64,000 nt of DNA from an uncultured Acidimicrobiales bacterium (GTDB lineage: Bacteria > Actinomycetota > Acidimicrobiia > Acidimicrobiales > SHLQ01). The DNA is taken from positions 33,057 through 97,056 of the forward strand of contig CALJDK010000025.1 of NCBI GenBank assembly GCA_938023735.1, given 5' to 3'. Below the pieces are notes generated by a model, which did not search any database, was not told the DNA's origin, and saw only the letters and a list, made by a program, of their open reading frames with translations. Below, piece after piece: positions 1 through 40,862 of this stretch; the first letter of the stretch is position 1, and each line of letters opens with the position of its first letter. A program made the position numbers and the translations under genes.

Positions 1-2
1 TG

Positions 3-74
3 ACGGCCATCTATGCCCGAGCGCTCGACACCAAGACCGTCCGACGCCACTACGAGGCGGGTCCGAACCCCTAA
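3..74 (+). CDS. 3' end of an unidentified CDS entering from upstream (...TAIYARALDTKTVRRHYEAGPNP*)
   Basis: Frame is open from the window edge to TAA at 72-74, with GC-rich third codon positions. Too short to assign a family. Confidence 0.3.
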   Translation, partial: TAIYARALDTKTVRRHYEAGPNP

Positions 75-96
75 GCCACGATCGGCTCGGCACGCT

Positions 97-720
97 CTAC
101 AGAATCGTGCACCCAGAATCTTCGAGTTCGGCGATGGCATTGTCGCCGTCGCCCGGTTCAAGGTTGACCGCACGCGACATCTCGGTGGGTACCGAGACCG
201 CGTAGCCGTTGGCCAAGGCGTCGAGAGCGGTGGCCTTGACACAAACGTCGAGCGCCAAGCCCACGACCACGACATCGGTGATGGATCTATCGGCCAGGAG
301 TTCGTGGAGTTCGGTTGGGCGTTCGTGGCCGGTGGTGGCATCGCGCATCGTAAAGCCCGAGTAGCCGTCCTCACCGTTGGTGCCCTTCTGCACGACGGGC
401 CCGACAACTTCGAGGTCGTCGCACAGCGACGCACCCCAGGTGTCGCGCACGCAATGCACCGGCCACACTCCCCCGTCGGTCACGAAGTGCGGAGTGCGTT
501 CGGGGTGCCAGTCCTGGGTGTACACGACAAAGGCACCAGCTTTCGTGGCCTCGGCTATATGAGAATTGATGGTGTCGACAATCTGATCGCCGCCGTCTAC
601 AAACAGGCTGCCATCGGGGCTGGCAAAGTCATGTTGCATGTCGACCACCACCAGTGCCGTGGCGGGGCCATAGCTCGGGGCTTGGGGATCGATGGTGGTC
701 ACTGCGATATCTCCGTTCAC
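97..720 (-). CDS. pncA: nicotinamidase/pyrazinamidase (isochorismatase family)
   Basis: 207 aa. VVVDMQHDF..., YTQDWHP and LALDVCV match the cysteine-hydrolase/PncA pattern. Divergent from pncB, 34 bp away. Confidence 0.85.
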   Translation of the reverse strand: MNGDIAVTTIDPQAPSYGPATALVVVDMQHDFASPDGSLFVDGGDQIVDTINSHIAEATKAGAFVVYTQDWHPERTPHFVTDGGVWPVHCVRDTWGASLCDDLEVVGPVVQKGTNGEDGYSGFTMRDATTGHERPTELHELLADRSITDVVVVGLALDVCVKATALDALANGYAVSVPTEMSRAVNLEPGDGDNAIAELEDSGCTIL

Positions 721-754
721 TGTCGCACCGTTTCACGCTTAGGCTAGTGGGCTT

Positions 755-2302
755 ATGGGAATTGCTGAACGTGCGTGGGCCGAGCGGGCTTTGTTTCTCG
801 ACAACTACCAACTCACGATGGCGCAACTGTATTTCCGCCATGGGATTCACGAAAGCACGGCGCAGTTCGAGCATTTCACTCGCAGTTGTCCCAACTACGG
901 CAACCACCAGGCGGGCTACTGCATCGCCGCCGGCCTCGAGTGGCTTCTCGACTGGATGGATGAAGCGAGCATCACCGACGCAGACATCGAGGCGTTGCGG
1001 TCGCAGCGAACCGCCACCGGCGAACAGCTCTTCGATGACGATTTCCTCTCCTGGCTTCGGGCCAACGGCTCGTTCGATTCGCTTTCGCTCCGAGCAGTTC
1101 CTGAAGGACGCGTGGTACATCCCAACGCTCCTCTCACCATCGTGCAGGGTCCGTTGGCCATCGCCCAACTTCTCGAAACCTCGTTGCTGAATCACTTGAA
1201 TTTTCAGACGCTTATCGCGACGAAGGCGAGCCGTATGGTTGAGGCCGCTCGTGGGCGACCAGTTCTCGAATTCGGTTTGCGACGCTCACCCGAGCATGCG
1301 GCTTCGGCGGCGACCCGAGCGGCCCTCATCGGCGGCGCAGACTTCTCGTCGAACACCGGCATCTCCAAGGTGCTGGGCGTCCCGCCCAAGGGAACCCATG
1401 CCCACAGCATGGTGCAGGTCTTCATGGCGCTCGGCGAAGGCGAGCTTGGGGCCTTCCGGTCCTATGCAAAGCAGTACCCCGACGATTGTCTGCTCCTGGT
1501 CGACACCATCGACACACTGCGCAGCGGCGTCCCCAACGCCATCACCGTGTTCGACGAGCTGCGTTCCGCTGGCCACAAGCCGGTCGGAGTTCGACTCGAC
1601 TCTGGCGACCTTGCGTATCTCGCCATTCAGTCGGCGCTGCTTCTCGATGCAGCCGGTCACGGCGAAACCAGCATCACCCTTTCGAGCGGACTCGACGAAC
1701 TCTCGATCTTTCAGATCCTGGCCCAGATCGACCAGGAGGCGCCGCGATATGGACTCTCAGCCGGGCAACTCATCAACCGATTGTCGTTTGGTGTTGGATC
1801 GAAGCTCACCGCATCTGATGGTCATCCCTATCTCGATGGTGTCTACAAGCTGGTGGCGCTTGAGAACCAAGGTGAGTGGCGGCCGGCAATCAAGCTGTCG
1901 GAGTCACCAGCGAAGTCTCAAACCCCTGGCGACAAGGATCTAATCCGGGTCTACGACGACCGGGGCCGCGCCACCGCCGATCTTTTGACCGTGGCCGGCG
2001 AAGAACTCCCCGACGATTTCATTACCCTGCAACACCCCATCGAACACGGCGTGCGCCGTCGACTGCCCAACGAGCGGGTGTCGGCCGTCGAGTCGCTGCT
2101 ACGCGACGTATACGGCCACGGCAAGCGGGTGGGCGAGCAGTCATCGCTAACCCAAATCCGAGAACGCCGCGATCGCGATATCGAGAAGCTTGACCCGGGT
2201 GTGCGGCGACTCGTGAACCCCCACACCTACCATGTGTCACTCTCGCCGGACCTATGGGATCTCAAGCAGCGTCTCATCACCGAGGCACGCGGCACCGGCT
2301 AG
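755..2302 (+). CDS. pncB: nicotinate phosphoribosyltransferase
   Basis: 515 aa. N-terminus [15 protein letters not shown] and HAHSMVQ are typical of NAPRTase. Paired with pncA. Confidence 0.9.
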
Positions 2303-2413
2303 CAAAAACCAAGAAGAGCGCTACCGGGGTAGCAATGTGACAGAGAAGAACCCGTTATTGTTGGTCAGTTGAACGAACAATAGATACCGAATGAACAAAT
2401 CAGTTGAGGGAAG

Positions 2414-3763
2414 ATGTCCGACGCAAACCCACCCGCATGGCACATCGACCCCTTCGACTCGAACCGACTGCGATGGTGGAACGGCACGGAGTGGACCGAG
2501 CACACCGAGCCTCAAACAACTCCTGAACCGATTGCAGAAACGAGCGTTATCGGCGACCAAGCCGGCGCCCATTACGAGTCCCCGCACGAAACGTTCTCGC
2601 CCCCCGGCACCGCCCCTGAAGGTCTCGACGCTGAGCGAGAGGCTTGGTTGAAGTTCGCGAAATCCGAGTACGACGAGATGGTCGAGTCGTTCGACCGGGA
2701 ACGCGCTGGCCTCGAATCAGAAGTGGCCGCTATCGAGACACAACTCATCGACCTCGGCGAGCGGCAGGAGATGCAGGAGGTAGGACTCGACGATGACGGT
2801 ACTCACCCCGTCTCGACCTCGGTTGAGTTTAAGGACGCAGTTACTACCGCAAAGAAGCGCCGAAAGGAGATGGCAAAGCGCAAAGACGCCGTGCTGGGCT
2901 CAACAAGCTGGACAGTCAACGGGTCGATCAAGGAAGGCAGGCAGATGGTCGACCAATTCTCGAAACTTATGCTTCGCTCCTACAACTCAGAACTCGACTC
3001 CCTCATAAAGGCGACCAACGCCACGAACTCCGCAGCGAAAATGACGGCTCTCGGCAAGAAGCGCGACCAGATCCGCAAGCTCGGCGCTTCGATGAACATC
3101 GAAGTTCATCCTGAGTATCACGAACTCGCAAGCTACGAAATACAAGTGACCGGACTCTACCAAGCTGCCAAACTCCGAGAGAAGGAAGCGGACCGGGCAC
3201 ACAAAGAGCAGCTGCGAGAACAGAAGAAGGTCGAAGCGGAGATAAAGCGGGAGCAGGAAAAACTCGACAAGGAAGCGGAGCTACACCGGCAAGCATTGGC
3301 GACGATCGAAAACGATCCCGATGCTGACCCAAACCAGCTTGCGGAATTGCGAGCGAAGGTGGCGGAGGTCGAAGCCGCCCAAGCAGACGTTATGAAGCGT
3401 GAAGCCAATACACGTGCCGGCCACGTCTACGTCATTTCGAACCAGGGGTCGTTCGGTGAGGACATGGTTAAGATAGGTATGACTAGACGCCTTGAACCTC
3501 TTGACCGAGTCCGCGAGCTTGGCGACGCTTCCGTTCCGTTCAGATTTTCCGTTCACGCACTACTCTTCTCCGACGATGCTGTGGGTCTTGAGGCGGAGCT
3601 TCACCGGCGATTTGCTGCGGTGCGGGTCAATAGAATCAACCACCGGCGAGAGTTCTTCAGGACGACGCCCGAAGCCGTTCGGGACGCCCTCGTCGACCTC
3701 AACGCACATATCGTCGAGTTCGACCCAAACCCGATTGACGAGGAGTGGGCGGCGTCGCAATGA
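2414..3763 (+). CDS. DUF2510 / DUF4041 coiled-coil / T5orf172 (MUG113, GIY-YIG-like) domain protein
   Basis: 449 aa. The N-terminus PAWHIDPF..LRWWNGTEWTEHT is DUF2510-like. The middle is a long K/E-rich coiled coil. The C-terminus GHVYVISN...VKIGMTRRLEPLDRVRELGDASVPFRF...LHRRF matches the T5orf172/MUG113 pattern. Confidence 0.8.
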   Translation: MSDANPPAWHIDPFDSNRLRWWNGTEWTEHTEPQTTPEPIAETSVIGDQAGAHYESPHETFSPPGTAPEGLDAEREAWLKFAKSEYDEMVESFDRERAGLESEVAAIETQLIDLGERQEMQEVGLDDDGTHPVSTSVEFKDAVTTAKKRRKEMAKRKDAVLGSTSWTVNGSIKEGRQMVDQFSKLMLRSYNSELDSLIKATNATNSAAKMTALGKKRDQIRKLGASMNIEVHPEYHELASYEIQVTGLYQAAKLREKEADRAHKEQLREQKKVEAEIKREQEKLDKEAELHRQALATIENDPDADPNQLAELRAKVAEVEAAQADVMKREANTRAGHVYVISNQGSFGEDMVKIGMTRRLEPLDRVRELGDASVPFRFSVHALLFSDDAVGLEAELHRRFAAVRVNRINHRREFFRTTPEAVRDALVDLNAHIVEFDPNPIDEEWAASQ

Positions 3764-3939
3764 CCAAACCGAATCCATTCCGGGAGCAGGGCTCACTTGC
3801 CGACCGCCAGCAATCGATCTGGTACCGGAAGCGTCTCGATGGCGAAGACCCAACCAAAATTGACCGAGCGAAGCTAACCGCAGAAAAGGCCAAGCGGAAG
3901 ATAGGCAAAACAGAACGCTGGCGGCGAAAGAAGACATAG
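3760..3939 (+). CDS. small basic hypothetical protein (59 aa) coupled to the upstream gene
   Basis: Its ATG overlaps the upstream stop (ATGA at 3760-3763). The product MTKPNPFREQ...KRKIGKTERWRRKKT has a Lys/Arg-rich tail. No family recognised. Confidence 0.45.
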   Translation: MTKPNPFREQGSLADRQQSIWYRKRLDGEDPTKIDRAKLTAEKAKRKIGKTERWRRKKT

Positions 3940-4019
3940 GCAAGCAGGACGCTCAAATCCTGAACCATCCCTGTGCTCATGGCGGTGGCAAGATTGAGTC
4001 GGTGCGGGCCGAAATTGGA

Positions 4020-4058
4020 GGAAAAACCAAGAAGAGCGCTACCGAAGTAGCGCTCTTC
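4020..4058 (-). terminator. intrinsic terminator of tRNA-Gly
   Basis: Perfect 12-bp stem GAAGAGCGCTAC-CGAA-GTAGCGCTCTTC at 4031-4058. On the minus strand it is followed by TTGGTTTTTCC. It begins 3 nt after the tRNA CCA end. Confidence 0.65.
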
Positions 4059-4061
4059 CTC

Positions 4062-4137
4062 TGGAGCGGACGACCAGATTCGAACTGGCGACCCTCACCT
4101 TGGCAAGGTGATGCTCTACCAACTGAGCTACGTCCGC
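4062..4137 (-). tRNA. tRNA-Gly (anticodon GCC), CCA encoded
   Basis: The reverse complement is GCGGACGTAGCTCAGTTGGTAGAGCATCACCTTGCCAAGGTGAGGGTCGCCAGTTCGAATCTGGTCGTCCGCTCCA. It folds by hand into a cloverleaf: 7-bp acceptor stem, anticodon loop TTGCCAA, T-loop TTCGAAT, discriminator U73. Confidence 0.95.
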
Positions 4138-4192
4138 AGGGTCACTCACTTTAGCAACCAAATGCCTCATCGCCACAGCGGGCGACGCAGGT

Positions 4193-4411
4193 TTAGCCTT
4201 CGGATCGAAGGTCGATCGTAAGGGTCAATACCCCATCGTCGAACTGCACCTCGGCATCGGCCAGCATGGCGAAATCCATGAAATCGTTCTGGGCTTGTTC
4301 GAGGAAGAGCGCCCGCTCATCGCCGCCCACTGGCGGCAGGGTGCGCTTCTTCACTGCTGCGGCTCGCGAGGCGAACCGGTCGATCATTTCTTGGGGATTA
4401 AAGGACGACAT
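4193..4411 (-). CDS. hypothetical protein (72 aa)
   Basis: Its start overlaps the upstream gene's stop (TAATG at 4409-4413). Acidic product, no recognisable family. Confidence 0.55.
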   Translation of the reverse strand: MSSFNPQEMIDRFASRAAAVKKRTLPPVGGDERALFLEQAQNDFMDFAMLADAEVQFDDGVLTLTIDLRSEG

Positions 4412-4869
4412 TACGAAACCTCTCGCTCAACTTCTGGCAGCTCAAACTCATCGTCGACAAGCTCAACGACGGCGTCGTCAACCTCAGGTATTCCATCGAT
4501 GCTCTCTGGATCAATGCTCTCTGGATCAATGCTGTTTGAGTGAATGCTGTTTGAGTGAATGCCGTCTGAGTGAATGCTCTCCTCGGCAACACTGCTGGCC
4601 ACGGCTTCGGGTTGTCGGCTCTCGGCATAGGCCGCTTTGCGGGCCTGCTTCTTCGAGTGCGCTCGAGCACGCCGTTTGGGGTCGGTGTGGATCCAGTAGA
4701 AAATCGTCAAGATGAGCAGCCCAATGGCGATTCCCATCAGACTCGACTTCACGATCTGCACCGTATCGTTGGCTTCGGCGCCGTTGGGAACGGCCTGGGC
4801 GGCAACAGGCGCCGCCAGCACGAGCGCGCTGACAAGCATCGCCGCCGTTACTCCCACGCCACGCCTGAC
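4411..4869 (-). CDS. membrane-anchored protein with an acidic tail of pentapeptide repeats (start uncertain)
   Basis: Signal-like AAMLVSALVLAAPVAAQA, one TM segment (GIAIGLLILTIFYWI), and a repeat tail IHSDGIHSNSIHSNSIDPESIDPESIDG. The track ORF extends to 5106 but overlaps nei, so a GTG at 4869 or the ATG at 4839 is more plausible. Confidence 0.55.
   Translation of the reverse strand, partial: VRRGVGVTAAMLVSALVLAAPVAAQAVPNGAEANDTVQIVKSSLMGIAIGLLILTIFYWIHTDPKRRARAHSKKQARKAAYAESRQPEAVASSVAEESIHSDGIHSNSIHSNSIDPESIDPESIDGIPEVDDAVVELVDDEFELPEVEREVS
4499..4573. repeat. five tandem 15-bp repeats inside the CDS
   Basis: ATGCTCTCTGGATCA x2, ATGCTGTTTGAGTGA x2 and ATGCCGTCTGAGTGA, read directly. They are in-frame, 5 codons per unit. 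Confidence 0.9.
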
Positions 4870-4957
4870 CGTGCGACGAAGAAGCGCCGCTCGCCCTGAT
4901 CCCGAACAATCCACCCTTTGATCGTAGCCGGTGGCGACGCAGCGGAAAGGGAGCACC

Positions 4958-5737
4958 CTAGAGCTGGTGTTTTGGGCACCAGTAGGTCGTACGACCGCCG
5001 ACTTTGTCTCGGGACAGGTCAAAACCGTCGAGGGGGCACACACCTGCCGCGTGACGCTCGTCGTGCAGGTCGCCTCGATGGGAACCTCCTCGGCTGTCGA
5101 GTTCATCGAGAACCTCGCGAACCTGCCTTGCGAGTTGGTGGATTTCGTCCCGTGAAAGGCTTCCGGCTGCCCGAGTTGGGGCGATACCGGCCCGCCACAG
5201 AATCTCGTCGGTAAGCAGATTTCCGAGGCCGGCCACCCGCTTCTGGTCGAGCAGACGGGCCTTCAGCGCCCCTCGGCCTTCGGCCAAAGCATTCGACAGC
5301 CCCTTCTCGTCGAGCCGCCAGGCATCGATGCCCAAGGCAGCCTCATCGGGATCGAGCTCGACCCCACCGAGGCGGCGAGGATCTCGCATCGTGAGCTTCC
5401 CGTGATCAAACACCAACGCGAACCGGTCCCACGCCGGGTCGTTTCGGTCGCTCGAGTACTCGAGCACGTCGATTGCCGCGTCGTCATCGACGATCAGCCG
5501 ACCGGTCATCCCGAATCGCAAACCTAGCGTCGGTCGCTGATCGCCCAGATCGAGGAGAAGTAGTTTGCCGTGGCGCCGGGAAGCCCGGATGGTGGCGTTG
5601 GTGATCGCATCGGTCACGGCATCGGCCGTGCACCCCTTCAGGTACCACGAGTCAGGAGCTTCGACCCTGCGGATCGTGCGGCCAATGACATTCTCGGCGA
5701 ACCTTCGATAGATCTCGATTTCGAGTATCTCAGGCAC
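4958..5737 (-). CDS. Fpg/Nei-family DNA glycosylase / AP lyase
   Basis: GTG start at 5737 gives (M)PEILEIEIYRR, with the catalytic Pro2/Glu3 motif. The H2TH region is LLDQKRVAGLGNLLTDEILW. The C-terminal CP...YWCPKHQ is finger-like. The track's longer ORF (to 6118) overlaps metX. Confidence 0.85.
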   Translation of the reverse strand: MPEILEIEIYRRFAENVIGRTIRRVEAPDSWYLKGCTADAVTDAITNATIRASRRHGKLLLLDLGDQRPTLGLRFGMTGRLIVDDDAAIDVLEYSSDRNDPAWDRFALVFDHGKLTMRDPRRLGGVELDPDEAALGIDAWRLDEKGLSNALAEGRGALKARLLDQKRVAGLGNLLTDEILWRAGIAPTRAAGSLSRDEIHQLARQVREVLDELDSRGGSHRGDLHDERHAAGVCPLDGFDLSRDKVGGRTTYWCPKHQL

Positions 5738-5754
5738 GAAGCTTTGCCTCGCCC

Positions 5755-6936
5755 CTAGGCGTTGGTGTCGGCGATGAACTTTGCGATCATCGGCCCAATT
5801 GCCGCCGACTCGAGAAGGAACCCGTCGTGCCCCTGCGGACTCTCGACCATTTCGTACTGCACCGACTGGCCCGACGATTCGAGCGCTTCGGCCATCTGTT
5901 GTTGCTGCCAAGGTTGGTACAACATGTCGGAGCTGACGCTCACCACAAGACTCGGAACCCGCACCCGCTTCACCGCATTGTCGACGCCGTTTCGTCCACG
6001 ACCAACGTCGTGGAGATCCATGGCCCGGTTGAGCACGAGATAGGAGTTGGCGTCGAAACGCCGGGCCAACTTCTGGCCGTGATGATCGAGGTAGCTCTCG
6101 ACTTGGAACCGACCCCAAAGTCCAAAACCGTCAAGCGAGTCAAGCGACTCACGCCCAAAGCGCTTCTGGAAAACTTCGTCGGACCGGTAGGTGACCTGTG
6201 CGACCGCGCGAGCTGCGGCAAGCCCCGCGTGCGGGCCGTCACCGGCTTCAGCCTCGTAGTACTCGCCACCACGCCACTTGGGGTCGAGCGCCAGCGAGCG
6301 ACGCCCCAGAGCGCTCCACGCAAGCTGCTGAGCTGACGCTGCGAGGGTGCTGGCCAGTGCGGTGAAGGAACGGAGCCGATCGGGGTACATGATGGCCCAT
6401 TCGATGACCTGCATGCCGCCCATCGAGCCACCAACCACGTGGTTCCACACGTCGATACCGAGATGGTCGGCCAGGCGGGCCTGAGTGCGCACCATGTCGC
6501 GAATCGTTACCACCGGAAAGCTGGAACCATACGGCTTGCCCGTGGCGGGATCGACCGATGCGGGACCCGTCGTCCCTTGGCAGCCCCCCAGCACGTTCGC
6601 GCAAACCACAAAGTACCGGTCGGTATCGATGGCCAGGCCGGGTCCGACAAAGTCATTCCACCATCCATCGGCCTTGTGTGCTCGCGACAGTTCGCCCGCA
6701 GCATGTGAATCGCCGGTGAGGGCATGGCAAACCAACACTGCATTCGATGCCGACTCATCGAGCTCGCCCCAGGTTTCATAGGCGATCTCAACCGCCCGAA
6801 GCGATCCGCCCAACTCGAGGACAAATGGCCGATCGTCGGCAATGGTCAAAAATTGGCGATGGCCAACGGCGTCGCCGTGCTGCCACGCGCCGGTTGCAGG
6901 GATATCGGAAGCAAAGTCATGCGGGCGATCAGCCAT
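5755..6936 (-). CDS. metX: homoserine O-acetyltransferase
   Basis: 393 aa. NAVLVCHALTGDSHAAG, GGSMGGMQ (nucleophile elbow) and the alpha/beta-hydrolase MetX pattern. Confidence 0.9.
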   Translation of the reverse strand: MADRPHDFASDIPATGAWQHGDAVGHRQFLTIADDRPFVLELGGSLRAVEIAYETWGELDESASNAVLVCHALTGDSHAAGELSRAHKADGWWNDFVGPGLAIDTDRYFVVCANVLGGCQGTTGPASVDPATGKPYGSSFPVVTIRDMVRTQARLADHLGIDVWNHVVGGSMGGMQVIEWAIMYPDRLRSFTALASTLAASAQQLAWSALGRRSLALDPKWRGGEYYEAEAGDGPHAGLAAARAVAQVTYRSDEVFQKRFGRESLDSLDGFGLWGRFQVESYLDHHGQKLARRFDANSYLVLNRAMDLHDVGRGRNGVDNAVKRVRVPSLVVSVSSDMLYQPWQQQQMAEALESSGQSVQYEMVESPQGHDGFLLESAAIGPMIAKFIADTNA

Positions 6937-8839
6937 CAGACTCTATTTTCCCTCGCGAACGAACCGCACGCACGACTGGGCTGTCGATTGCCAACCGATC
7001 GGTCCACCAGTCGAGAAGTTCATCAGGGGCGACCTGGTAGGCGTCACACATCACCGCACCGAGCTCGACCAGAAGAGTGTCACGGTCCGATGGTGCCGTC
7101 AGGTGACTGCTCGACGCCAATTCTTTTGCCAACGAAGCGCCTCGGTCCCAAGCCGCGCCACCGTTGGGGACGGGCAGGGCGAGGAGCTGTTTGGCCGAAA
7201 GTTTGATTGCATTTGCCGCCAAGGCGGCTCCCGCGGTCCGGCGTAACGCCACCGCAGAGGTAACCGGATTGGTAAGCACCGCAGCAAGGTGCCAGAGCGA
7301 TTCGACGTTCTCTGGTTCGACGCTCAGCACCGGAGTTACCGGGACCATGTTGCCGTCGGGGTCGGCAATGGCCTCGATCACTTTGGTCTGCGTTGCCACC
7401 AGCAGCTTCGGCACTCGGCGGGCCTCGACCCAACCAAATACCCGGCCATCGTCGGCCAGTGCCGTCAGGTCGATGCTCGGCTGCTCCCATCGTTGCTTGG
7501 CAAATCGGCAACTATCGATGCCCCAACGGCAATCAAGCGGCTCGATAAGCCCCGACGTGATGAGTCGTACCGGAGGGCCGTGATGTTTCTCTGGTGCTGT
7601 CTGCTCTGTCGCTGTCTTCTGTGCCTCCTGGGCTTCCTGTGCCACTCGGGCCAACCCGTAGTACTCATCTCGGAACCCGGCGGTCGCCCCGGCAAGGTCG
7701 GCCACCGTCTGCGACGACGAAACCTTCACCCGCGGAACGCCGAGGCGATCGGCCGCGAATTCGGACCATTGCGATGGCGGCGAGGCCGGTGGCACAACAT
7801 GGTCAAACACCGGAATGGACGAGATATAGCGCGCTACCGACTGCTGACGGCCTCCCTTCCGAAGCTTTGGGGCACAGACCCGAACCGAGGCGTCGAACCC
7901 AGCATCGTCGGCGATCCACAGGGCTTCGAGCGCCGAATCGGCCGACACGATTTCGCGGATTGGTTGGGTGTCGTTGGTAGCCAGAATCGATTGCGGAAGG
8001 ATCATCATCGCTACCCCGCCGTCGGCGAGTCGGTCATGTGCGTCGAGCAGGAACAGCGCCGCAGTGTCGGTGTAGGGGCGAACGATCTGCTTGCCGGTAT
8101 AGGAGGTGGCCTGGTTTTCTCTTGCCCGGTCGAATCGGGAACGAAGCGCTTTGGTGTCTTCGGCGGACCGGGCTGTCGTTTCGCCAAGCTGATTTTGAAA
8201 CGGCGGATTTCCGATGATGGCGGTGTAGATGACCTTCTCCGAGCGCGCGTGGTCGGCAAAAAGTTCGTCGATGAAGAAGCCATTCCCAGCACGGACATTG
8301 ACATTGTCGGGGTCCACATCGGCCCAGCTACCCAGCGCCATTCGTGCCGTAGCAGCGGCCAGCGGATCAAGGTCGACGCCGCGTAGTTTCGCGACCGCCG
8401 CAGCACGACTCAACCCCTGTTCGGCCAACCATCGAGCTGCGGCCAGGAGAAAGGCTCCGCCCCCGCAGGTGGGATCGAGGATGTATTCGTGGCTCGGAGC
8501 CGACCCCCAATCTTCGGGACCATCACTAAGCGCGACAGCGGTGATCGCTTCAGCAACCGGCCGGGGTGTGAAGTACATACCTTCGGCATGGCGCTCATCA
8601 GCAGCGGTCACCGCCTGCACGGCAAGCCCGAGCAGATCGGCGGCCTCGATGTCGGGCCCCAGGCCTGGTGGCACGGGCAGCACTGGCAGCACCGGTTCCG
8701 CAAGCAGTTCCTTGTCGATCGGCGCGCCGATATCGGTAGCGACAGCCACCATGACCGCCTCACGGGTTGAGCGAGCGACCACCTGACGCAGGTCGTGGAG
8801 ATAACGCTCGACGTCGTCTCGGACCGGGTTAGGCACCAC
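6929..8839 (-). CDS. N6-adenine DNA methyltransferase, gamma class (Eco57I/TaqI-like), no adjacent nuclease
   Basis: 636 aa. YFTPRPVAEAI, motif I ILDPTCGGGAFL and motif IV IIGNPPF, followed by about 300 aa consistent with a TaqI-like target-recognition domain. The 3' end overlaps the metX start by 8 nt. Confidence 0.8.
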   Translation of the reverse strand: MVPNPVRDDVERYLHDLRQVVARSTREAVMVAVATDIGAPIDKELLAEPVLPVLPVPPGLGPDIEAADLLGLAVQAVTAADERHAEGMYFTPRPVAEAITAVALSDGPEDWGSAPSHEYILDPTCGGGAFLLAAARWLAEQGLSRAAAVAKLRGVDLDPLAAATARMALGSWADVDPDNVNVRAGNGFFIDELFADHARSEKVIYTAIIGNPPFQNQLGETTARSAEDTKALRSRFDRARENQATSYTGKQIVRPYTDTAALFLLDAHDRLADGGVAMMILPQSILATNDTQPIREIVSADSALEALWIADDAGFDASVRVCAPKLRKGGRQQSVARYISSIPVFDHVVPPASPPSQWSEFAADRLGVPRVKVSSSQTVADLAGATAGFRDEYYGLARVAQEAQEAQKTATEQTAPEKHHGPPVRLITSGLIEPLDCRWGIDSCRFAKQRWEQPSIDLTALADDGRVFGWVEARRVPKLLVATQTKVIEAIADPDGNMVPVTPVLSVEPENVESLWHLAAVLTNPVTSAVALRRTAGAALAANAIKLSAKQLLALPVPNGGAAWDRGASLAKELASSSHLTAPSDRDTLLVELGAVMCDAYQVAPDELLDWWTDRLAIDSPVVRAVRSRGKIESDG

Positions 8840-8859
8840 TTGAGCCTACGCTCCAAGGA

Positions 8860-9387
8860 ATGAAATGGGATGTGTACGGCGAGACCGTGATTTATGACAA
8901 TCCATGGGTGCGGCTCACCACCGTCGATGTCGACGTTCCTGGCGTCGGACGCATAGACCATCACGTGGTGCGGGCAACCGGCGAGGTTGTCGGAACCGTG
9001 GTGACCGACCCCGACCGAGGCATCTTGTTGATGTATCGGCATCGGTTCATCACCGACCGGTGGGGATGGGAAATCCCGGCGGGCCGAGTTGACCCAGGCG
9101 AGTCGCTTCGGGATGCAGCCATTCGAGAAACCACCGAAGAGACCGGCTGGAAACCGCTCGATGTTACACCCGCCACCTTCTACTACCCCAGCGACGGACT
9201 GAGCGATCAGAAATTCAACGTGTTCACCGCCCGCGGCGCCGAATATGTCGGACCGCCTACCGACATCTCCGAGTCCGAGCGGATCGAATGGGTAACGCCT
9301 GCGCGTGCCCGGACCCTGCTTACCGACGGGTCTATCAGCAACGGCCTAACGATGGCCGCCCTGCTGTGGACGTTTAGCTTCGGCTAG
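8860..9387 (+). CDS. NUDIX hydrolase (ADP-ribose pyrophosphatase-like)
   Basis: 175 aa with the Nudix box GRVDPGESLRDAAIRETTEETG. Confidence 0.85.
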   Translation: MKWDVYGETVIYDNPWVRLTTVDVDVPGVGRIDHHVVRATGEVVGTVVTDPDRGILLMYRHRFITDRWGWEIPAGRVDPGESLRDAAIRETTEETGWKPLDVTPATFYYPSDGLSDQKFNVFTARGAEYVGPPTDISESERIEWVTPARARTLLTDGSISNGLTMAALLWTFSFG

Positions 9388-10541
9388 AGGTTGTCGGGGT
9401 CGTAGCTTGTGAGGTCGGCGAGTCGAGGGTCGTTGGAGAACATCTCGATAATCGGCTGGATGACCTCGATGCGCTTCTGCAGGCGCTTCACTTCGAGTTC
9501 TTCGTTGAACAACACCAACGTGGCAACGATGCCCGATTGGCCCGCACGGGCGGTACGGCCGGAGCGATGCAGGTAGGTCTTGTGATCGGACGGCGGGTCG
9601 TAATGAATGACCAGATCTACTTCGTCGACGTGAATGCCTCGGGCGGCCACATCGGTTGCCACCATTACCTGAAGTTTGCCGGCACTGAAATCGGCGAGTG
9701 CCCGCTCTCGGTTGCTCTGGCGCAGATCGCCGTGAATAGCGGCCGCACGCACGCCCTCGTCGTCGAGCGCAATGGCGAGTTTGTCAGCCATATGTTTGGT
9801 GCGGGTGAACATGATGGTGCGGTTTCCGCCACGCGAAATGGCAGCCGCCACTTTGGGCTTGTCCATCTGGTGGACCGCAATGAAGCGATGCAGCATCTGG
9901 TCGACGGTGACCTCTTTCGACTCGACCTCGTGCATGACCGGATCGGTTTGGTACCGCTTGATGAGCGTGTTGACCGCGCCATCGAGTGTTGCCGAGAAAA
10001 GCAGTGTCTGGTGATCGGTGTCGACCTGGCGCAGAATCCACTCGAGTTGGGGCAGGAACCCCATATCGGCCATGCGGTCGGCCTCGTCGACGATGACCAC
10101 CTGAATAGCCGAGACATCGATCTCTTTGCGCTCGATGAGGTCAATCATCCGGCCGGGCGTGGCGACGACAAGGTCGACACCCTTGTTGATCTTGGCAATC
10201 TGTTTTTCGATGGGCGCCCCGCCATAGATGGCGACGGCGGTGCGGTCGAGAACCTCGCCCAGCGGTGCAAGCTCGTCACAAACCTGGGTGGCCAACTCTC
10301 GGGTCGGGACCAAGGCAAGGCCGAGTGGCTGGCCGGGCTTCGCTTTCCCGAGGCGCTCCAGCGCAGGAATGCCAAAGGCCAAGGTCTTCCCCGAACCGGT
10401 CTGGGCTTTGCCGCAAACATCGCGCCCCGCAAGAGCATCGGGGATAGTAAGTTCCTGAATCGGGAAGGCACCAGTAATGCCGCGAGAGTCAAGAGACTTC
10501 GCGACCACGTCGGACACGCCGAGCGTGCGAAAATCGGTCAT
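9384..10541 (-). CDS. DEAD-box ATP-dependent RNA helicase
   Basis: Q-motif GFAFPIQ-like, AQTGSGKT, VDEADRM, SAT and HRSGRTARAG. Confidence 0.9.
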   Translation of the reverse strand: MTDFRTLGVSDVVAKSLDSRGITGAFPIQELTIPDALAGRDVCGKAQTGSGKTLAFGIPALERLGKAKPGQPLGLALVPTRELATQVCDELAPLGEVLDRTAVAIYGGAPIEKQIAKINKGVDLVVATPGRMIDLIERKEIDVSAIQVVIVDEADRMADMGFLPQLEWILRQVDTDHQTLLFSATLDGAVNTLIKRYQTDPVMHEVESKEVTVDQMLHRFIAVHQMDKPKVAAAISRGGNRTIMFTRTKHMADKLAIALDDEGVRAAAIHGDLRQSNRERALADFSAGKLQVMVATDVAARGIHVDEVDLVIHYDPPSDHKTYLHRSGRTARAGQSGIVATLVLFNEELEVKRLQKRIEVIQPIIEMFSNDPRLADLTSYDPDNL

Positions 10542-33556: not shown

Positions 33557-34615
33557 TCAGTCGTCGAGACTGATGGGTTCATCGTCGGCTTCACTGAAGT
33601 CCTCCGAGTCGGTGAGATCGACCACATCCTCGGGTTTTGGCATGACGATCTTGAACACCCGGTCGGTGACCTCGACCATGATCTCAGGGTTCTCTTTGAG
33701 GAACTTCTTCGCATTTTCTCGACCCTGGCCGAGCTGCTCTCCCTCGTAGGTGTACCAAGCACCCGACTTCTTGATGATGTCGTGTTCGACACTGATATCG
33801 AGCACCGAACCTTCTCGGCTGATGCCTTCGCCATACATGATGTCGAACTCAGCAACCCGGAAAGGCGGCGCCACCTTGTTCTTGGCGACCTTTACCTTCA
33901 CCCGGTTTCCAACAACCTCGGTGCCGTCCTTGATCGATTCGATACGACGGATATCGAGGCGGACCGAGGAGTAGAACTTGAGGGCCCGACCACCAGGTGT
34001 GGTCTCGGGAGAACCAAACATCACGCCGATCTTCTCGCGCAGCTGGTTAATGAAGATGCAGATGGTGTTGGACTTATTGAGGTTAGCGGTGAGCTTGCGC
34101 AGCGCCTGGCTCATGAGGCGGGCCTGAAGCCCCACGTGGGACTGGCCCATCTCGCCTTCGAGCTCGACCTTTGGAGTCAGCGCAGCAACCGAGTCGATAA
34201 CGATGACGTCGATCGCTCCCGAACGAACAAGCGTGTCGCAGATCTCAAGTGCCTGCTCGCCAGTATCGGGCTGGGCGATGAGCAATTCATCGACATCGAC
34301 GCCGATAGCCCGGGCGTAGACCGGATCCATGGCGTGCTCGGCATCGATATAGGCGCAAATACCACCATTGCGCTGGGCCTCGGCCACAACGTGGGTAGCG
34401 AGTGTGGTCTTACCAGATGACTCTGGACCGTAAATCTCGACCACACGACCACGCGGCAACCCGCCAACCCCCAAGCAAATATCGAGCGAGAGGGCACCGG
34501 TAGGTACTACCTCGATAGCCATGGTGGCTTTGTCACCCATCTTCATGACGGCGCCTTTGCCGTGGTTCTTTTCAATCTGGCTCATGGCCATTTCGAGTGC
34601 TTTTTCGCGATCCAT
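33557..34615 (-). CDS. recA: recombinase RecA
   Basis: ATG at 34615 gives [27 protein letters not shown]...[14 protein letters not shown], an unmistakable RecA. Confidence 0.96.
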
Positions 34616-34731
34616 TGGGGATTCTCCTTGAAGGAAATATGGGGGCCTGGACTCTCGAGGCCTTGACGTGAGCGAACCTACAGAGGGGGTGTGACACACT
34701 GTGGGGCGAACAAGATGACAGCACTGTAGTT

Positions 34732-34747
34732 TCGAACAAGCGTTCGA
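34732..34747. promoter_or_regulatory. LexA (SOS) box upstream of recA
   Basis: TCGAACAAGCGTTCGA has perfect half-sites and lies 117 nt upstream of the recA ATG. Confidence 0.85.
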
Positions 34748-34871
34748 TGCAACCATCCGGGCAAAATTCGCAAAAGATTTTTTTCGGAAAAGGCCGTTAG
34801 ATTGATGGGGCGGGTGGAGAACCGCTACTACGTCTGCGACCCCTTGCGGGTTTCGGACCAGGAGTTACCCC

Positions 34872-35060
34872 GTGCCCCGCAATTGGATCTACTTCCTGCT
34901 GATCCTCTTTATGCTTTACCTGATCAGCCTCAACCCAACCGATGCCGGCATCACCGCCCACTCCTTCTTTGGATGGCTCGGATCCATGCTCAGCTCAATA
35001 GGACAGTTCTTCGACGGACTCTTCGACGGGCCTGGACCTATCGACCCGGCGGCCGGCTAG
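34872..35060 (+). CDS. small membrane protein (62 aa)
   Basis: GTG start with AGGAG 9 nt upstream. Hydrophobic N-terminus WIYFLLILFMLYLISL. The competing 278-aa ORF (34802..35638) is Arg-rich and looks spurious. Confidence 0.5.
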   Translation: MPRNWIYFLLILFMLYLISLNPTDAGITAHSFFGWLGSMLSSIGQFFDGLFDGPGPIDPAAG

Positions 35061-35078
35061 AAGCCGCAACACTCGACT

Positions 35079-35771
35079 ATGACGTCGCACGGCGGCAGTC
35101 CGGGCCGCCTCTACGGAAGGCGGCGTTCGTCGCTCACCGCGCTCATCTGGCCGCTGCCCGAGAGCGAAATTCTGGTTCCTGGCGAAAAGGTGTACTACCG
35201 GGAACGAGCCCACTGGACATCGCTCTTTCCCTATTTGGTCGAAACGGTTTCGATCATCATTTTGCTGATGGTCGGACTCGAAGGAATGCCGCAAGGTTGG
35301 GGCGCTTCCGCCGGCGTCATTGTCATCGGGTCGGTCATTGTGGTTTTCCGGTTTCTGCAAGCCCGCGATTGGAACTGGACCCAAGGCATCTTCTTGGCCT
35401 GCATCGCACTCGTGGCGTTTGCCATGACGTCGGGATCCTCGACCGGTTTGGCCGTTTTGGCCGGGTTTGCCGCCATGATTCGCCTGGTAGCCCATTACCT
35501 TCGCTGGGCGTTCTACGAGGACCGCTACATCACAAATCGACGGGTCCTCGAAACCACCGGCTTCTTCGGCTCGCGCATCTCGTCCATGCCTTTGGGGCGC
35601 GTGACCGATATCAGTCTCACGCGAAGCGTCTTTGGTGAGGTGTTCGATTTCGGCACGCTTCGTGTGGAAAGCGCCGGTCAGGATCAGGCCCTCGGCACTA
35701 TCCCCTACCTCGTAGAACCCGAAATCTTCCACGAAACCATCGTCCTACTGTCAACCGAAACCCACGCGTAA
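35079..35771 (+). CDS. membrane-flanked bacterial PH domain (bPH_2/YdbT-like) protein
   Basis: ERAHWTSLFPYLV, two TM segments, then YITNRRVLETTGFFGSRISSMPLGRVTDISLTRSVFGEVFDFGTLRVES. Confidence 0.8.
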   Translation: MTSHGGSPGRLYGRRRSSLTALIWPLPESEILVPGEKVYYRERAHWTSLFPYLVETVSIIILLMVGLEGMPQGWGASAGVIVIGSVIVVFRFLQARDWNWTQGIFLACIALVAFAMTSGSSTGLAVLAGFAAMIRLVAHYLRWAFYEDRYITNRRVLETTGFFGSRISSMPLGRVTDISLTRSVFGEVFDFGTLRVESAGQDQALGTIPYLVEPEIFHETIVLLSTETHA

Positions 35772-36189: not shown

Positions 36190-37137
36190 ATGCTCACTGG
36201 TATTGATCGCTTGAACTACGAAAAGGAAGCCGTTGCTCCTTATGTGGGCGGTATTGGCTGGCGGACGGTGTTCAACGCCATCTGGCCGATCGCTGGGTGG
36301 ATCGCCACTATCGCTGCGTACCAGACCGGCCGCATACCCCTTTGGGGCGCGTTCATCCTGTCCATGGTGTTACTGCAAGCCCTGTACATGCCGGTACACG
36401 AATCGGTGCACAAGACGGTTTCGGGTGGCCGGTCGTCACTGGCCTGGGCCGACAAACTCATTGGTTCGGTGGCCGGATGGCTGATGTTGGTGAGCTTTCG
36501 CGATCACACCATCACCCACCTCATCCATCACACCCACGCCAACGACGAGTACGACCCCGATGTACTCAACTCGAAGGGTCGGCCCATCGACCTCGTGATC
36601 CGCTCGATCATCGGCCTCGTGCTCTACCCGCTCGGTCCCATCATCGCTGCCGTGCCCGCCGTTGGCCGAATGGTTCCCAAAGCCATCGCCGGTCGGCTGC
36701 AACTTTCAGCGAAGCTTCGTGGCCCCGAGGCGGTGACCGCTGCACGACGAGCGGCCACGTCGCATCTTGCTGTGCTCATCATCGGCACGGTGATTGGTTT
36801 CGCCGACCTGGTGTGGCTGGTCTGGTACGTGCCGGTATGGATGGGCCGAATCTGGCTATCGTTTGTGTTCGGCTGGCTCCCCCATCATCCGCATGGCGAA
36901 GTGGGTCGCTATCGAGACACCCGGGTGTTCACCTTCCCGGCCAGCACGCTATTAATCCGCGGGCACGACCATCACCTCCTCCACCACATGTTTCCCAGGG
37001 TCCCCCACTACTCGCTCAAACGACTCTGGGCCGATATGGGGCCGCACCTGATCGAGCAGGGCGCACGCATCGAAGGCAGAGCCGCCCGCCAGCACGGTCT
37101 TACTCCGGGAACCGCCGCGACGCCGGCAACCCAGTGA
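36190..37137 (+). CDS. membrane fatty-acid desaturase / hydroxylase family protein
   Basis: Three His boxes: HESVHK, HLIHHTH and HHLLHHMFPRVPH. Confidence 0.85.
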   Translation: MLTGIDRLNYEKEAVAPYVGGIGWRTVFNAIWPIAGWIATIAAYQTGRIPLWGAFILSMVLLQALYMPVHESVHKTVSGGRSSLAWADKLIGSVAGWLMLVSFRDHTITHLIHHTHANDEYDPDVLNSKGRPIDLVIRSIIGLVLYPLGPIIAAVPAVGRMVPKAIAGRLQLSAKLRGPEAVTAARRAATSHLAVLIIGTVIGFADLVWLVWYVPVWMGRIWLSFVFGWLPHHPHGEVGRYRDTRVFTFPASTLLIRGHDHHLLHHMFPRVPHYSLKRLWADMGPHLIEQGARIEGRAARQHGLTPGTAATPATQ

Positions 37138-40859: not shown

Positions 40860-40862
40860 CTC

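What the first reader, a model, noticed from the sequence alone, without database searches (positions are those of the whole stretch)
2304..4051. 1.7-kb insertion without an integrase, split into the tRNA-Gly terminator and bounded by 23-bp perfect direct repeats
AAAAACCAAGAAGAGCGCTACCG occurs at 2304-2326, one nt after the pncB stop, and again at 4022-4044. Similarity extends to 28/30 positions. The right copy is part of a perfect 12-bp-stem hairpin (4031-4058). Read on the minus strand, that hairpin is followed by UUGGUUUUU and starts 3 nt after the CCA end of tRNA-Gly, so it is the tRNA terminator. The left copy keeps only the U-tract and one hairpin arm. Deleting 2327-4044 would restore a compact pncB-stop / terminator / tRNA-Gly junction. 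The inserted DNA opens with an AT-rich stretch (2334-2413) that is atypical for this window. It carries only two ORFs and has no integrase, transposase or terminal inverted repeats that I can see. This pattern looks like a site-specific insertion next to a tRNA gene, yet no mobilisation function is encoded in cis in any recognised form. The GIY-YIG-like protein itself could act in a homing-like way, but that is speculation.
Basis: seen in the sequence. Interest (0 to 1): 0.7.

Follow-up and report, generated by a model that had tools for sequence, protein, structure and literature searches.

The report
Integrase-less phage-defence cassette beside tRNA-Gly
A 1.7-kb piece of foreign DNA carrying a known kind of anti-phage nuclease gene (SNIPE/PD-lambda-1) sits in the terminator hairpin between pncB and tRNA-Gly in some members of an uncultured Acidimicrobiales population; it duplicated 23-30 bp of its target and brought no recombinase, a known but mechanistically unexplained way for defence genes to move.

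Summary
The 23-mer occurs only at 2304-2326 and 4022-4044, with 28/30 similarity. The right copy lies in the intrinsic terminator of tRNA-Gly(GCC).

The predicted empty site exists. A metagenome contig is 100% identical to the window over 2.3 kb on the left and 6.0 kb on the right, has one repeat copy, and lacks the 1718 bp. Two sister species are also empty. Unitig ends suggest both alleles coexist in one sequencing run.

The cargo is not a homing endonuclease. It is a homologue of SNIPE/PD-lambda-1, a characterised anti-phage nuclease, here with DUF2510 instead of a membrane anchor. A conserved 59-aa basic ORF is translationally coupled to it. No integrase, transposase or terminal inverted repeats are present.

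The most likely route is Campbell-type integration of a small non-autonomous circle that carried an imperfect copy of the terminator, catalysed in trans. Rivals are a staggered-break "long target duplication", as described for restriction-modification genes, and a decayed prophage.

Compact recombinase-less SNIPE units flanked by direct repeats recur: 10/141 loci against 4/848 controls. One sits at a tmRNA terminator.

Verdict: a new member of a known kind, of moderate interest.

The parts
755..2302 (+). pncB (nicotinate phosphoribosyltransferase), the left flank gene. Its stop codon lies 1 nt before the left repeat.
   Evidence: Pfam NAPRTase_N/NAPRTase/NAPRTase_C. An identical protein sits on empty-site contigs L001-L003.
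2304..2333 (+). Left repeat copy (attL-like). It is perfect over 23 bp (2304-2326) and 28/30 through 2333. It holds the complement of the U-tract, the left hairpin arm, an altered loop (CGGG) and 5 nt of the right arm.
   Evidence: It folds no better than shuffles.
2327..4044 (+). It is absent from otherwise identical contigs.
   Evidence: blastn of L001 against the window. GC 0.568, in the lowest 1% of 1.7-kb windows.
2334..2413 (+). AT-rich non-coding leader of the cassette (40% GC), presumably holding the promoter. It contains a GTTATTGT block that is conserved upstream of related cassettes.
   Evidence: The sigma-70 consensus scan found no match.
2414..3763 (+). ORF1, 449 aa: a SNIPE/PD-lambda-1 homologue with DUF2510 (7-39), DUF4041 (184-238) and a T5orf172/MUG113 GIY-YIG-type nuclease domain (336-426). 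It has no transmembrane segment.
   Evidence: Pfam; PADLOC PD-Lambda-1, E = 2.8e-102; phrog_1847, E = 6.5e-106; hydropathy maximum 0.93.
3760..3939 (+). ORF2, 59 aa, very basic (19 K+R). Its start overlaps the ORF1 stop (ATGA). It is conserved downstream of the closest ORF1 homologues.
   Evidence: Alignment A5 has invariant positions R8, L13, S19, Y22, L26, G28 and E29. It has no Pfam, PADLOC or PHROG hit.
3940..4021 (+). Right non-coding end of the insert (82 bp). It has no terminator of its own and no homology to related cassettes.
4022..4051 (+). Right repeat copy (attR-like), continuous with the intact hairpin.
4029..4060 (-). Intrinsic terminator of tRNA-Gly: 13-14 bp stem, UUCG loop and U-tract. 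This is the target of the insertion, and it is conserved with the same loop in two sister species.
4062..4137 (-). tRNA-Gly(GCC), intact.
   Evidence: ARAGORN; Rfam, 71.7 bits.

Best explanation
The segment is a strain-variable, non-autonomous phage-defence cassette. It carries a SNIPE-type nuclease gene plus a coupled small ORF, and it entered the terminator shared by pncB and tRNA-Gly by a single reciprocal (Campbell-type) recombination.

The incoming DNA was a roughly 1.7-kb circle, or a circularisable fragment. It carried its own imperfect 30-bp copy of the terminator region: the A-tract, the left hairpin arm, a CGGG loop and 5 nt of the right arm.

Crossover within the 23 bp of identity produced a hybrid left copy and a right copy that restores the complete tRNA terminator. 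Neither pncB nor the tRNA is damaged, and the cassette borrows the hairpin as its own 3' end.

The cassette encodes no recombinase. The exchange was therefore catalysed in trans, either by an integrase of a co-resident phage or island, or by host homologous recombination acting at its lower length limit.

Once present, the allele can spread between conspecifics by ordinary recombination in the identical flanks. It persists as a presence/absence polymorphism.

What is shown: the insertion, the empty site, the identity of the cargo, the absence of a recombinase gene in the insert, and the intact terminator.

What is inferred: the circular intermediate, the position of the crossover, and the catalyst acting in trans.
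For: 1. An empty allele with 100% identical flanks exists, and sister species are empty. This is therefore a gain, and by the flanks a recent one.

2. In run ERR9287622 the unitigs L003 (empty) and L088 (cassette) end at the same base, exactly where the next 31-mer becomes common to both. This suggests that both alleles are in that sample.

3. The repeat geometry is that of attL/attR: 23/23 identity, then 2 mismatches, then 5 more matches. An in-register 5-nt run by chance has p of about 0.006 (my estimate), so the incoming DNA most likely already carried a homologous, slightly different copy. The CGGG loop is found in none of the three species' terminators.

4. The target is a palindrome next to a stable-RNA gene, the classical setting for integrases.

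5. The roughly 80-bp AT-rich and 82-bp non-coding ends would join around the core in a circle, giving a non-coding region of about 190 bp, the size of an attP.

6. SNIPE homologues in temperate phages sit beside the integrase/att end. Examples are Poushou gp33 next to int gp32, and Mask int gp46 close to gp44. In IMG/VR, 21/80 have an integrase within 1.5 kb downstream and 46/80 lie less than 3 kb from a contig end.

7. The insert has foreign composition and codon usage.

8. It encodes no integrase or transposase and has no terminal inverted repeats.
Against: No helper integrase and no autonomous element with this att sequence was found. The 22-mer and the attL-type 19-mer have 0 relevant hits in IMG/VR and JGI contigs. 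None of 29 window proteins tested is a recombinase. These searches cannot see the rest of the genome.

Both repeat copies have AAAAA, whereas all three empty-site contigs have AAAA. A simple crossover into a 4-A site predicts one copy of each, so an unsampled 5-A recipient or gene conversion has to be assumed.

The A-tract part of the repeat is species-specific. This fits duplication of the local target at least as well as a foreign attP.

Across the family, compact repeat-flanked SNIPE units never contain an integrase, and SNIPE+integrase pairs are never compactly flanked by repeats. This is not what a simple decay series predicts.

The 23 bp of identity is marginal for RecA (my knowledge).
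Confidence: 0.45

Rival explanations
1. [quoted passage not shown] Gap filling then duplicated 23-30 bp of the local target. This is the pattern described for restriction-modification genes, where the defence nuclease or another source of breaks is suspected to play a role.
For: The insert contains only defence genes.

Both copies are identical to each other, including the 5-A run, and carry this species' own version of the variable A-tract.

Compact recombinase-less SNIPE units flanked by repeats of different sequence and length (17-104 bp) recur: 10/141 loci against 4/848 random pseudo-cassettes (Fisher p = 1.6e-6). The repeats often consist of a terminator or a gene 3' end. Examples are L161 with 104 bp, L101 with the tmRNA terminator, and L171 with 27 bp including a stop codon.

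The same phenomenon, with the same features, was documented for R-M genes (PMC2853133).
Against: A fresh target duplication should be perfect. Here two adjacent mismatches in the loop are followed by 5 matches, which needs either error-prone filling or a chance match (p about 0.006).

The mechanism has never been demonstrated. The published criterion was a repeat longer than 30 bp.

The cassette was not seen at multiple sites or in multiple copies in this species.
Confidence: 0.27
2. Decayed integrative element. A prophage or island with its own integrase integrated at the tRNA-Gly terminator. Deletions later removed everything except the defence moron and both att sites, giving a CIME-like remnant.
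For: SNIPE is typically the gene next to the integrase/att end of temperate phages.

The site is adjacent to a tRNA gene, and the repeats look like att sites.

The closest cassette homologue in L006 lies in an island with a tyrosine integrase.
Against: It needs at least two precise deletions within a time in which 8.3 kb of flank acquired no substitution.

No pseudogene debris is present. The non-coding ends are only 80 and 82 bp long and have no homology to anything found.

No intermediate SNIPE+integrase mini-island flanked by repeats was seen in 45 integrase-adjacent cases.
Confidence: 0.15
3. Self-mobilisation. The GIY-YIG nuclease of ORF1 cuts the terminator and drives homing-like copying of its own gene.
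For: ORF1 has a nuclease domain of the GIY-YIG/T5orf172 type with conserved residues.

Repeat flanking is enriched around SNIPE genes.
Against: In E. coli, SNIPE is a non-sequence-specific nuclease tethered at the membrane that cuts injected phage DNA (10.1101/2025.11.03.685801).

Homing by double-strand-break repair does not create direct repeats. It also needs a donor allele at the same site.

No multi-copy spread was seen.
Confidence: 0.05
4. There was no insertion. The empty contigs are deletion derivatives or assembly artefacts, and the cassette is ancestral.
For: Direct repeats can mediate precise deletion.
Against: Two sister species are empty with conserved synteny.

The empty sites have 4 A's, whereas a deletion between the repeats would leave 5.

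The empty site was assembled independently in three data sets. The insert has deviant composition.
Confidence: 0.03

Closest known systems
SNIPE / PD-lambda-1 single-gene anti-phage system (Vassallo et al. 2022, from my knowledge; Laub-lab preprint 10.1101/2025.11.03.685801, read)
   Same: ORF1 matches the PADLOC PD-Lambda-1 models over residues 82-448 (E = 2.8e-102). It has the DUF4041 domain (Pfam now names PF13250 'SNIPE') and the C-terminal GIY-YIG/T5orf172 nuclease domain.
   Different: It has no N-terminal transmembrane helix. The N-terminus is a DUF2510 domain, a term that does not occur in the paper. A conserved, translationally coupled 59-aa basic ORF follows it, and this is not part of the described system. 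Function was not tested here.
'Insertion with long target duplication' of restriction-modification genes (Nobusato et al. 2000, cited in Furuta et al. 2010; Furuta et al. 2010 is PMC2853133, read)
   Same: Nuclease-based defence genes are inserted without any mobility gene. An empty site exists in a close relative. The flanking direct repeats are unique in the genome, variable in length and sequence between cases, and often span the stop of a neighbouring gene so that the target stays intact. The two copies are often not quite identical.
   Different: The repeat here is shorter: 23 bp perfect and 30 bp imperfect, against their >30 bp criterion, although they list a 26/26 case. The cargo is a different defence family. 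The target is a stable-RNA terminator hairpin.
CIMEs (cis-mobilizable elements), i.e. att-flanked elements lacking integrase that depend on a related ICE/IME (my knowledge; the term occurs in review PMC5704250, listed but not read)
   Same: It is flanked by att-like direct repeats, has no recombination module, and sits at a site typical for integrative elements.
   Different: No cognate autonomous element, tandem accretion or third repeat copy was found. At 1.7 kb it is much smaller than described CIMEs.
tRNA/tmRNA-targeting prophages and islands with defence 'morons' next to the integrase
   Same: The location is at the 3' side of a tRNA gene. SNIPE homologues occupy the integrase/att end of temperate phages.
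   Different: The repeat does not overlap the tRNA gene itself, only its terminator. There is no integrase and there are no other phage genes.
IS1634/IS1549-type insertion sequences with long, variable target duplications (my knowledge; the 'transposon of Mycoplasma' is mentioned in PMC2853133)
   Same: They produce long target duplications of variable length.
   Different: Those elements encode a DDE transposase and have terminal inverted repeats. Neither is present here.

Membership tests
SNIPE / PD-lambda-1 defence nuclease | Central DUF4041 (SNIPE) domain | tested here: met
   PF13250, E = 3.8e-11, residues 184-238. PADLOC PD-Lambda-1, E = 2.8e-102, covering model positions 96-469 of 491.
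SNIPE / PD-lambda-1 defence nuclease | C-terminal GIY-YIG-type (T5orf172) nuclease domain with conserved catalytic positions | tested here: met
   PF10544, E = 3e-16, and PF13455, E = 3.1e-17. Positions Y339, R358, R359 and E413 are invariant in 16 homologues. Catalysis was not tested.
SNIPE / PD-lambda-1 defence nuclease | N-terminal membrane anchor (a TM helix in about two-thirds of homologues; other membrane-targeting domains in the rest) | tested here: not met
   The maximum 19-residue Kyte-Doolittle hydropathy is 0.93. The N-terminus is DUF2510. Whether DUF2510 or ORF2 provides localisation is unknown.
SNIPE / PD-lambda-1 defence nuclease | Protection against phage by cutting DNA during injection | not testable with these tools
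   This requires an experiment.
Insertion with long target duplication (Kobayashi type) | The insert contains defence genes only and no mobility gene | tested here: met
Insertion with long target duplication (Kobayashi type) | An empty site with a single target copy exists in a close relative | tested here: met
   L001-L003; sister species.
Insertion with long target duplication (Kobayashi type) | A duplication longer than 30 bp, derived from the target itself | tested here: inconclusive
   The repeat is 23 bp perfect and 28/30 imperfect. Both copies carry the species-specific A-tract. However, the CGGG loop and the 5-A run differ from the sampled target.
Integrase-mediated integrative element / CIME | Flanking att-type direct repeats at a tRNA-associated site | tested here: met
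Integrase-mediated integrative element / CIME | An integrase in cis, or a cognate autonomous element with the same att that can act in trans | tested here: not met
   There is no recombinase in the insert. None was found among 27 further window proteins or by phmmer. The att sequences have no relevant hit in IMG/VR or JGI contigs.
Insertion sequence / transposon | Transposase, terminal inverted repeats and a short fixed target duplication | tested here: not met
   the repeat is 23-30 bp long.
Free-standing homing endonuclease gene | Insertion without target duplication, and a sequence-specific nuclease that cuts the empty allele | tested here: not met
   A 23-30 bp direct repeat is present. 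The family's characterised member is not sequence-specific. Cleavage specificity of ORF1 was not tested.

The most novel reading that the evidence does not exclude
SNIPE genes, like restriction-modification genes, may form a class of recombinase-less mobile defence units. Such units would insert as bare transcription units with long, variable target duplications, preferentially at strong terminator hairpins of stable-RNA and other genes. The insertions would be triggered by nuclease-made or hairpin-associated staggered breaks rather than by any integrase. This locus would then be a freshly made example, with both alleles still present in one population.
Probability: 0.15. Interest if true: 0.75.

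Novelty: new member of a known kind. Interest (0 to 1): 0.45.

Why it matters
How single defence genes move between genomes without a recognisable vehicle is an open question. The 'long target duplication' pattern was reported for restriction-modification genes in 2000 and 2010 and has never been explained.

This locus shows the same pattern for a different nuclease-based system, SNIPE. The occupied and empty alleles have identical flanks and apparently coexist in one natural population, so the junctions are close to their original state.

It also shows that the terminator hairpin behind a tRNA gene can be the target, rather than the tRNA gene itself, and that the insertion leaves both neighbouring genes intact.

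For annotation, it is a reminder that small integrase-less islets beside tRNA genes can hold functional defence systems. It also shows that a TM-less, DUF2510-type SNIPE subfamily with a coupled small ORF is common in Actinomycetota.

Tried and rejected
1. Generic repeat. The 23-mer has no other copy in the window. It has no hit in JGI metagenome contigs or IMG/VR.

2. Transposon. There are no terminal inverted repeats and no transposase.

3. Ends derived from a foreign pncB or tRNA locus. The insert ends show no significant similarity to the pncB 3' end or to the tRNA side.

4. Helper integrase in the window. Twenty-nine proteins were scanned with Pfam or PADLOC, and phmmer was run with an integrase from L006. 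None was found; the region is core genome with recA, hflX, miaA and lgt.

5. A phage or plasmid carrying the cassette or its att. Only the conserved nuclease-domain core matches at the DNA level. The single IMG/VR hit to the relaxed hairpin pattern is an unrelated palindrome inside a coding region.

6. Conserved element termini among related cassettes. Homology is confined to about 2350-3910, and the flanks differ in every context.

7. A third repeat copy or tandem accretion in ten repeat-flanked units. None was found.

8. A SNIPE+integrase mini-island as an intermediate. No flanking repeats above background were found in 45 cases.

9. Partial repeats upstream of the tRNA- or RNase P-adjacent cassettes L169, L005, L010, L013 and L082. 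None was found.

10. A suspected integrase fragment in L117. Pfam did not confirm it.

11. The exact ORF1 look-up by the look-up of encoding contigs returned nothing, although the protein is in the collection.

12. Close relatives of the cassette are absent from the GTDB representatives, JGI contigs and IMG/VR. The best identities are 49%, 52% and 48%.
Full report
**Observation**

The 23-mer AAAAACCAAGAAGAGCGCTACCG occurs exactly twice in the 64-kb window, at 2304-2326 and 4022-4044. No further match appears even when 3 mismatches are allowed, and shuffles expect none. blastn also finds no other copy. The similarity extends to 28 of 30 positions; the repeat finder reports 33 nt at 91%.

pncB (755-2302) ends one base before the left copy.

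The right copy runs into the perfect hairpin GAAGAGCGCTAC-CGAA-GTAGCGCTCTTC (4031-4058). This lies 3 nt from the CCA end of tRNA-Gly(GCC), 4062-4137 on the minus strand. Read on the minus strand it is a textbook intrinsic terminator, with a UUCG loop, a 13-14 bp stem and UUGGUUUUU. Its dG is -25.4 kcal/mol, with z = -5.2 against shuffles.

The left copy keeps the U-tract, the left arm, a changed loop (CGGG) and 5 nt of the right arm. It has no significant fold.

**It is an insertion, and the empty site exists**

An exact-protein look-up of PncB returned contig L001 (ENA ERZ6864144, 26 kb). There the pncB stop is followed by cAAAACCAAGAAGAGCGCTACCGAAGTAGCGCTCTTCCTC and then tRNA-Gly.

L001 is 100% identical to window 4023-10021. 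Over window 1-2333 it is identical except for the repeat itself, which shows one A fewer and AA in place of GG.

Two Logan unitigs, L002 and L003, show the same empty junction.

Sister species whose PncB is 89% and 87% identical keep the synteny pncB / hairpin / tRNA-Gly with no insert and the same CGAA loop. The empty state is therefore ancestral, and the 1718 bp were gained.

The best named PncB relatives are Acidimicrobiales MAGs, at 79% and 72% identity.

**Both alleles seem to coexist**

In run ERR9287622 the empty-site unitig L003 and a 1644-bp unitig, L088, end at the very same base (...ACCGAAGTAGCG). L088 equals window 2409-4052 at 100% identity.

That base is exactly where the next 31-mer becomes shared between the empty site and the right junction. 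With k = 31 de Bruijn unitigs (k is from my knowledge of Logan), this is the signature of two paths merging. It implies a presence/absence polymorphism within one sample. This is an inference from contig ends, not from reads.

**The cargo**

ORF1 (2414-3763, 449 aa) has DUF2510, DUF4041 and a T5orf172/MUG113 domain. It matches the PADLOC PD-Lambda-1 models at E = 2.8e-102 and phrog_1847 at E = 6.5e-106.

PD-lambda-1 has been renamed SNIPE. In E. coli it is a membrane-anchored GIY-YIG nuclease that cuts phage DNA during injection. DUF4041 binds DNA, and a version without the membrane anchor is toxic (10.1101/2025.11.03.685801).

The protein here has no hydrophobic segment.

ORF2 (3760-3939, 59 aa, 19 K+R) overlaps the ORF1 stop. 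It recurs in the same coupled position behind all the closest ORF1 homologues, with the conserved motif SLAD-x-PES-x2-Y-x3-L-x-GE. It has no family match.

The insert encodes no integrase or transposase. It has no terminal inverted repeats and no known RNA.

Its GC content of 0.568 is in the lowest 1% of 1.7-kb windows. The leader 2334-2413 is the lowest-GC 80-bp window of the 64 kb. ORF1 codon usage is the second most deviant among 29 long genes.

**Where related cassettes sit**

The exact cassette is known only from this contig and from L088.

Homologues with 65-92% protein identity share DNA homology only over about 2350-3910 and lie in different contexts:

- L005 lies 46 bp from the 3' end of RNase P RNA.
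- L169/L170 lie about 98 bp from a convergent tRNA-Arg.
- L006 lies inside an island with a tyrosine integrase.
- L173 lies beside GmrSD.

Several of these are again flanked by short direct repeats of unrelated sequence:

- L171/L172 have 27 bp (26/27), including the stop codon of the upstream gene.
- L173 has 20 bp (19/20).
- L006 has 22 bp (20/22).

**Family-wide test**

I scored the best ungapped direct repeat between the 1.5 kb upstream and the 1.2 kb downstream of each SNIPE homologue in loci from genomes and metagenomes. As a control I used random pseudo-cassettes elsewhere in the same loci and in the window.

A score of 17 or more occurs in 10/141 SNIPE loci against 4/848 controls (Fisher p = 1.6e-6).

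The clear cases are compact, 1.6-2.8 kb. They hold only SNIPE, with ORF2 or one small ORF in some cases, and mostly have lower GC than their flanks. Each has exactly two repeat copies.

- In L161 the repeat is 104 bp (103/104). It comprises a bidirectional terminator plus the last 65 bp of the convergent gene.
- In L101 the unit sits directly behind tmRNA, and the repeat is that gene's 31-bp terminator hairpin, again with the single mismatch in the loop. The gene on its far side is a housekeeping oxidoreductase.

The window's structure is therefore not a one-off.

**Comparison with known systems**

The pattern matches 'insertion with long target duplication', which Kobayashi's group described for restriction-modification genes. 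Those cases have defence genes only, an empty site in a relative, and unique repeats of variable length that often span a neighbour's stop or start. The mechanism is unknown, and double-strand breakage is suspected (PMC2853133).

It also matches the definition of an att-flanked, integrase-less element (CIME; my knowledge).

Phage data bear on this. In temperate phages SNIPE homologues lie next to the integrase/att end:

- Poushou has gp33 followed by integrase gp32.
- Mask has integrase gp46, then gp45, then gp44.
- Streptococcal prophages carry SNIPE 1-3 kb from an end.

In IMG/VR contigs, 21/80 have a tyrosine-integrase-like ORF within 1.5 kb downstream on the same strand. In 46/80 the gene lies within 3 kb of the contig end.

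However, no compact SNIPE+integrase unit flanked by repeats was found among 45 integrase-adjacent cases.

**Mechanism for this locus**

Three details constrain it.

(a) After the 23 identical bases come two mismatches in the hairpin loop and then five more matches. A fresh duplication of the target should be perfect, and a chance 5-nt in-register match has p of about 0.006 (my estimate). The CGGG loop occurs in no sampled terminator. This favours an incoming molecule that already carried a similar but not identical copy, which means a Campbell-type single crossover.

(b) Both copies carry this species' own version of the variable A-tract (AAAA(A)CCAAG, against AAAAAGCAAG and AAAACGCAGA in the sister species). 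The incoming copy therefore originated from this species' site, or else the sequence was duplicated locally.

(c) Both copies have five A's, whereas all sampled empty sites have four. No simple model explains this without an unsampled 5-A recipient or gene conversion. It also shows that the sampled empty sites are not excision products of this allele.

Weighing these, I favour Campbell-type integration of a small non-autonomous circle catalysed in trans (0.45). Next comes a staggered-break long target duplication (0.27), then a decayed prophage or island (0.15). Self-mobilisation by the nuclease (0.05) and 'no insertion' (0.03) are unlikely.

The insertion leaves pncB and the tRNA terminator intact and gives the cassette a terminator. 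This may simply be why insertions at such sites survive.

**What could not be done**

The rest of this genome could not be searched, so a helper integrase cannot be excluded. Raw reads could not be examined for circular junctions or allele frequencies. The Logan and ENA assemblies, where this lineage lives, could not be scanned by DNA. The family statistic uses random positions as its control, not other accessory genes, so specificity to SNIPE is not established.

**Verdict**

The cargo is identified as a SNIPE defence system of a TM-less subtype with a coupled small ORF. The thing is a new member of a known kind, an integrase-less defence islet of the 'long target duplication' type. It is of moderate interest because it is a clean, recent example at a stable-RNA terminator and because the pattern recurs in the family.

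Noticed in passing
window 3760-3939; L004 1434-1613; L005 3222-3404; L006 8264-8428; L169 7305-7469; L171 7554-7685; L173 2074-2226: A small, very basic ORF (44-61 aa; motif SLAD-x-PES-x2-Y-x3-L-x-GE) is always translationally coupled to the stop of the DUF2510-type or TM-less SNIPE gene in this actinobacterial clade. It has no family match. Because TM-less SNIPE is toxic in E. coli, it might be a partner or inhibitor.
   Followed up: partly
window 2304-2308 and 4022-4026 vs L001 7550-7553, L002/L003 7082-7085: Both repeat copies have five A's, whereas all three empty-site contigs have four. No simple integration or excision model predicts this.
   Followed up: partly
L088 position 1 (= window 2409): The cassette unitig from ERR9287622 starts 5 bp before the ORF1 start codon instead of running to the left repeat. 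This hints at a sequence variant or a second upstream context of the cassette in that sample.
   Followed up: no
L005 1876-3407 and 3453-3815: In a contig from the same sample as a sister-species contig, a 92%-identical SNIPE+ORF2 cassette lies 46 bp from the 3' end of RNase P RNA (convergent). Its DUF2510 region is frameshifted. No flanking repeat was found.
   Followed up: partly
L101 1-126 and 2245-2275: A SNIPE-only unit is inserted directly behind tmRNA with a duplication of the 31-bp tmRNA terminator hairpin. The only mismatch between the copies is in the loop, as in the window.
   Followed up: yes
L187-L266 (IMG/VR); L185 2312-4981; L186 284-3595: In (pro)phage contigs SNIPE homologues are strongly biased to one genome end, usually just upstream of the tyrosine integrase. 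21/80 have an integrase within 1.5 kb downstream, and 9/80 have less than 300 bp to the contig end.
   Followed up: yes
window 4495-4584 (inside ORF 4411-5106, minus strand): Six tandem 15-bp units (ATCAATGCTCTCTGG-like) encode a pentapeptide repeat in a putative membrane protein next to the tRNA. The gene call on L001 for this region is shorter (142 aa).
   Followed up: no
window 6929-8839 (-): A 636-aa N6-adenine methyltransferase (PF02384, weak Eco57I; PADLOC MTase_II) has no adjacent recognisable nuclease. It is conserved in synteny in the sister species, so it is probably an orphan or type IIG-like enzyme of the core genome.
   Followed up: no
window 34802-35638 (+), 36297-37811 (+), 40502-40885 (+): These ORFs have clearly lower third-position GC (0.48-0.56 against about 0.70). 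They have no Pfam match or only a weak one (a TetR_N fragment). This may be another patch of foreign DNA next to recA (33557-34756).
   Followed up: no
L096 3732-3852: A group II intron D1-D4 domain (Rfam RF01999, 95 bits) lies about 1.7 kb downstream of a repeat-flanked SNIPE unit.
   Followed up: no
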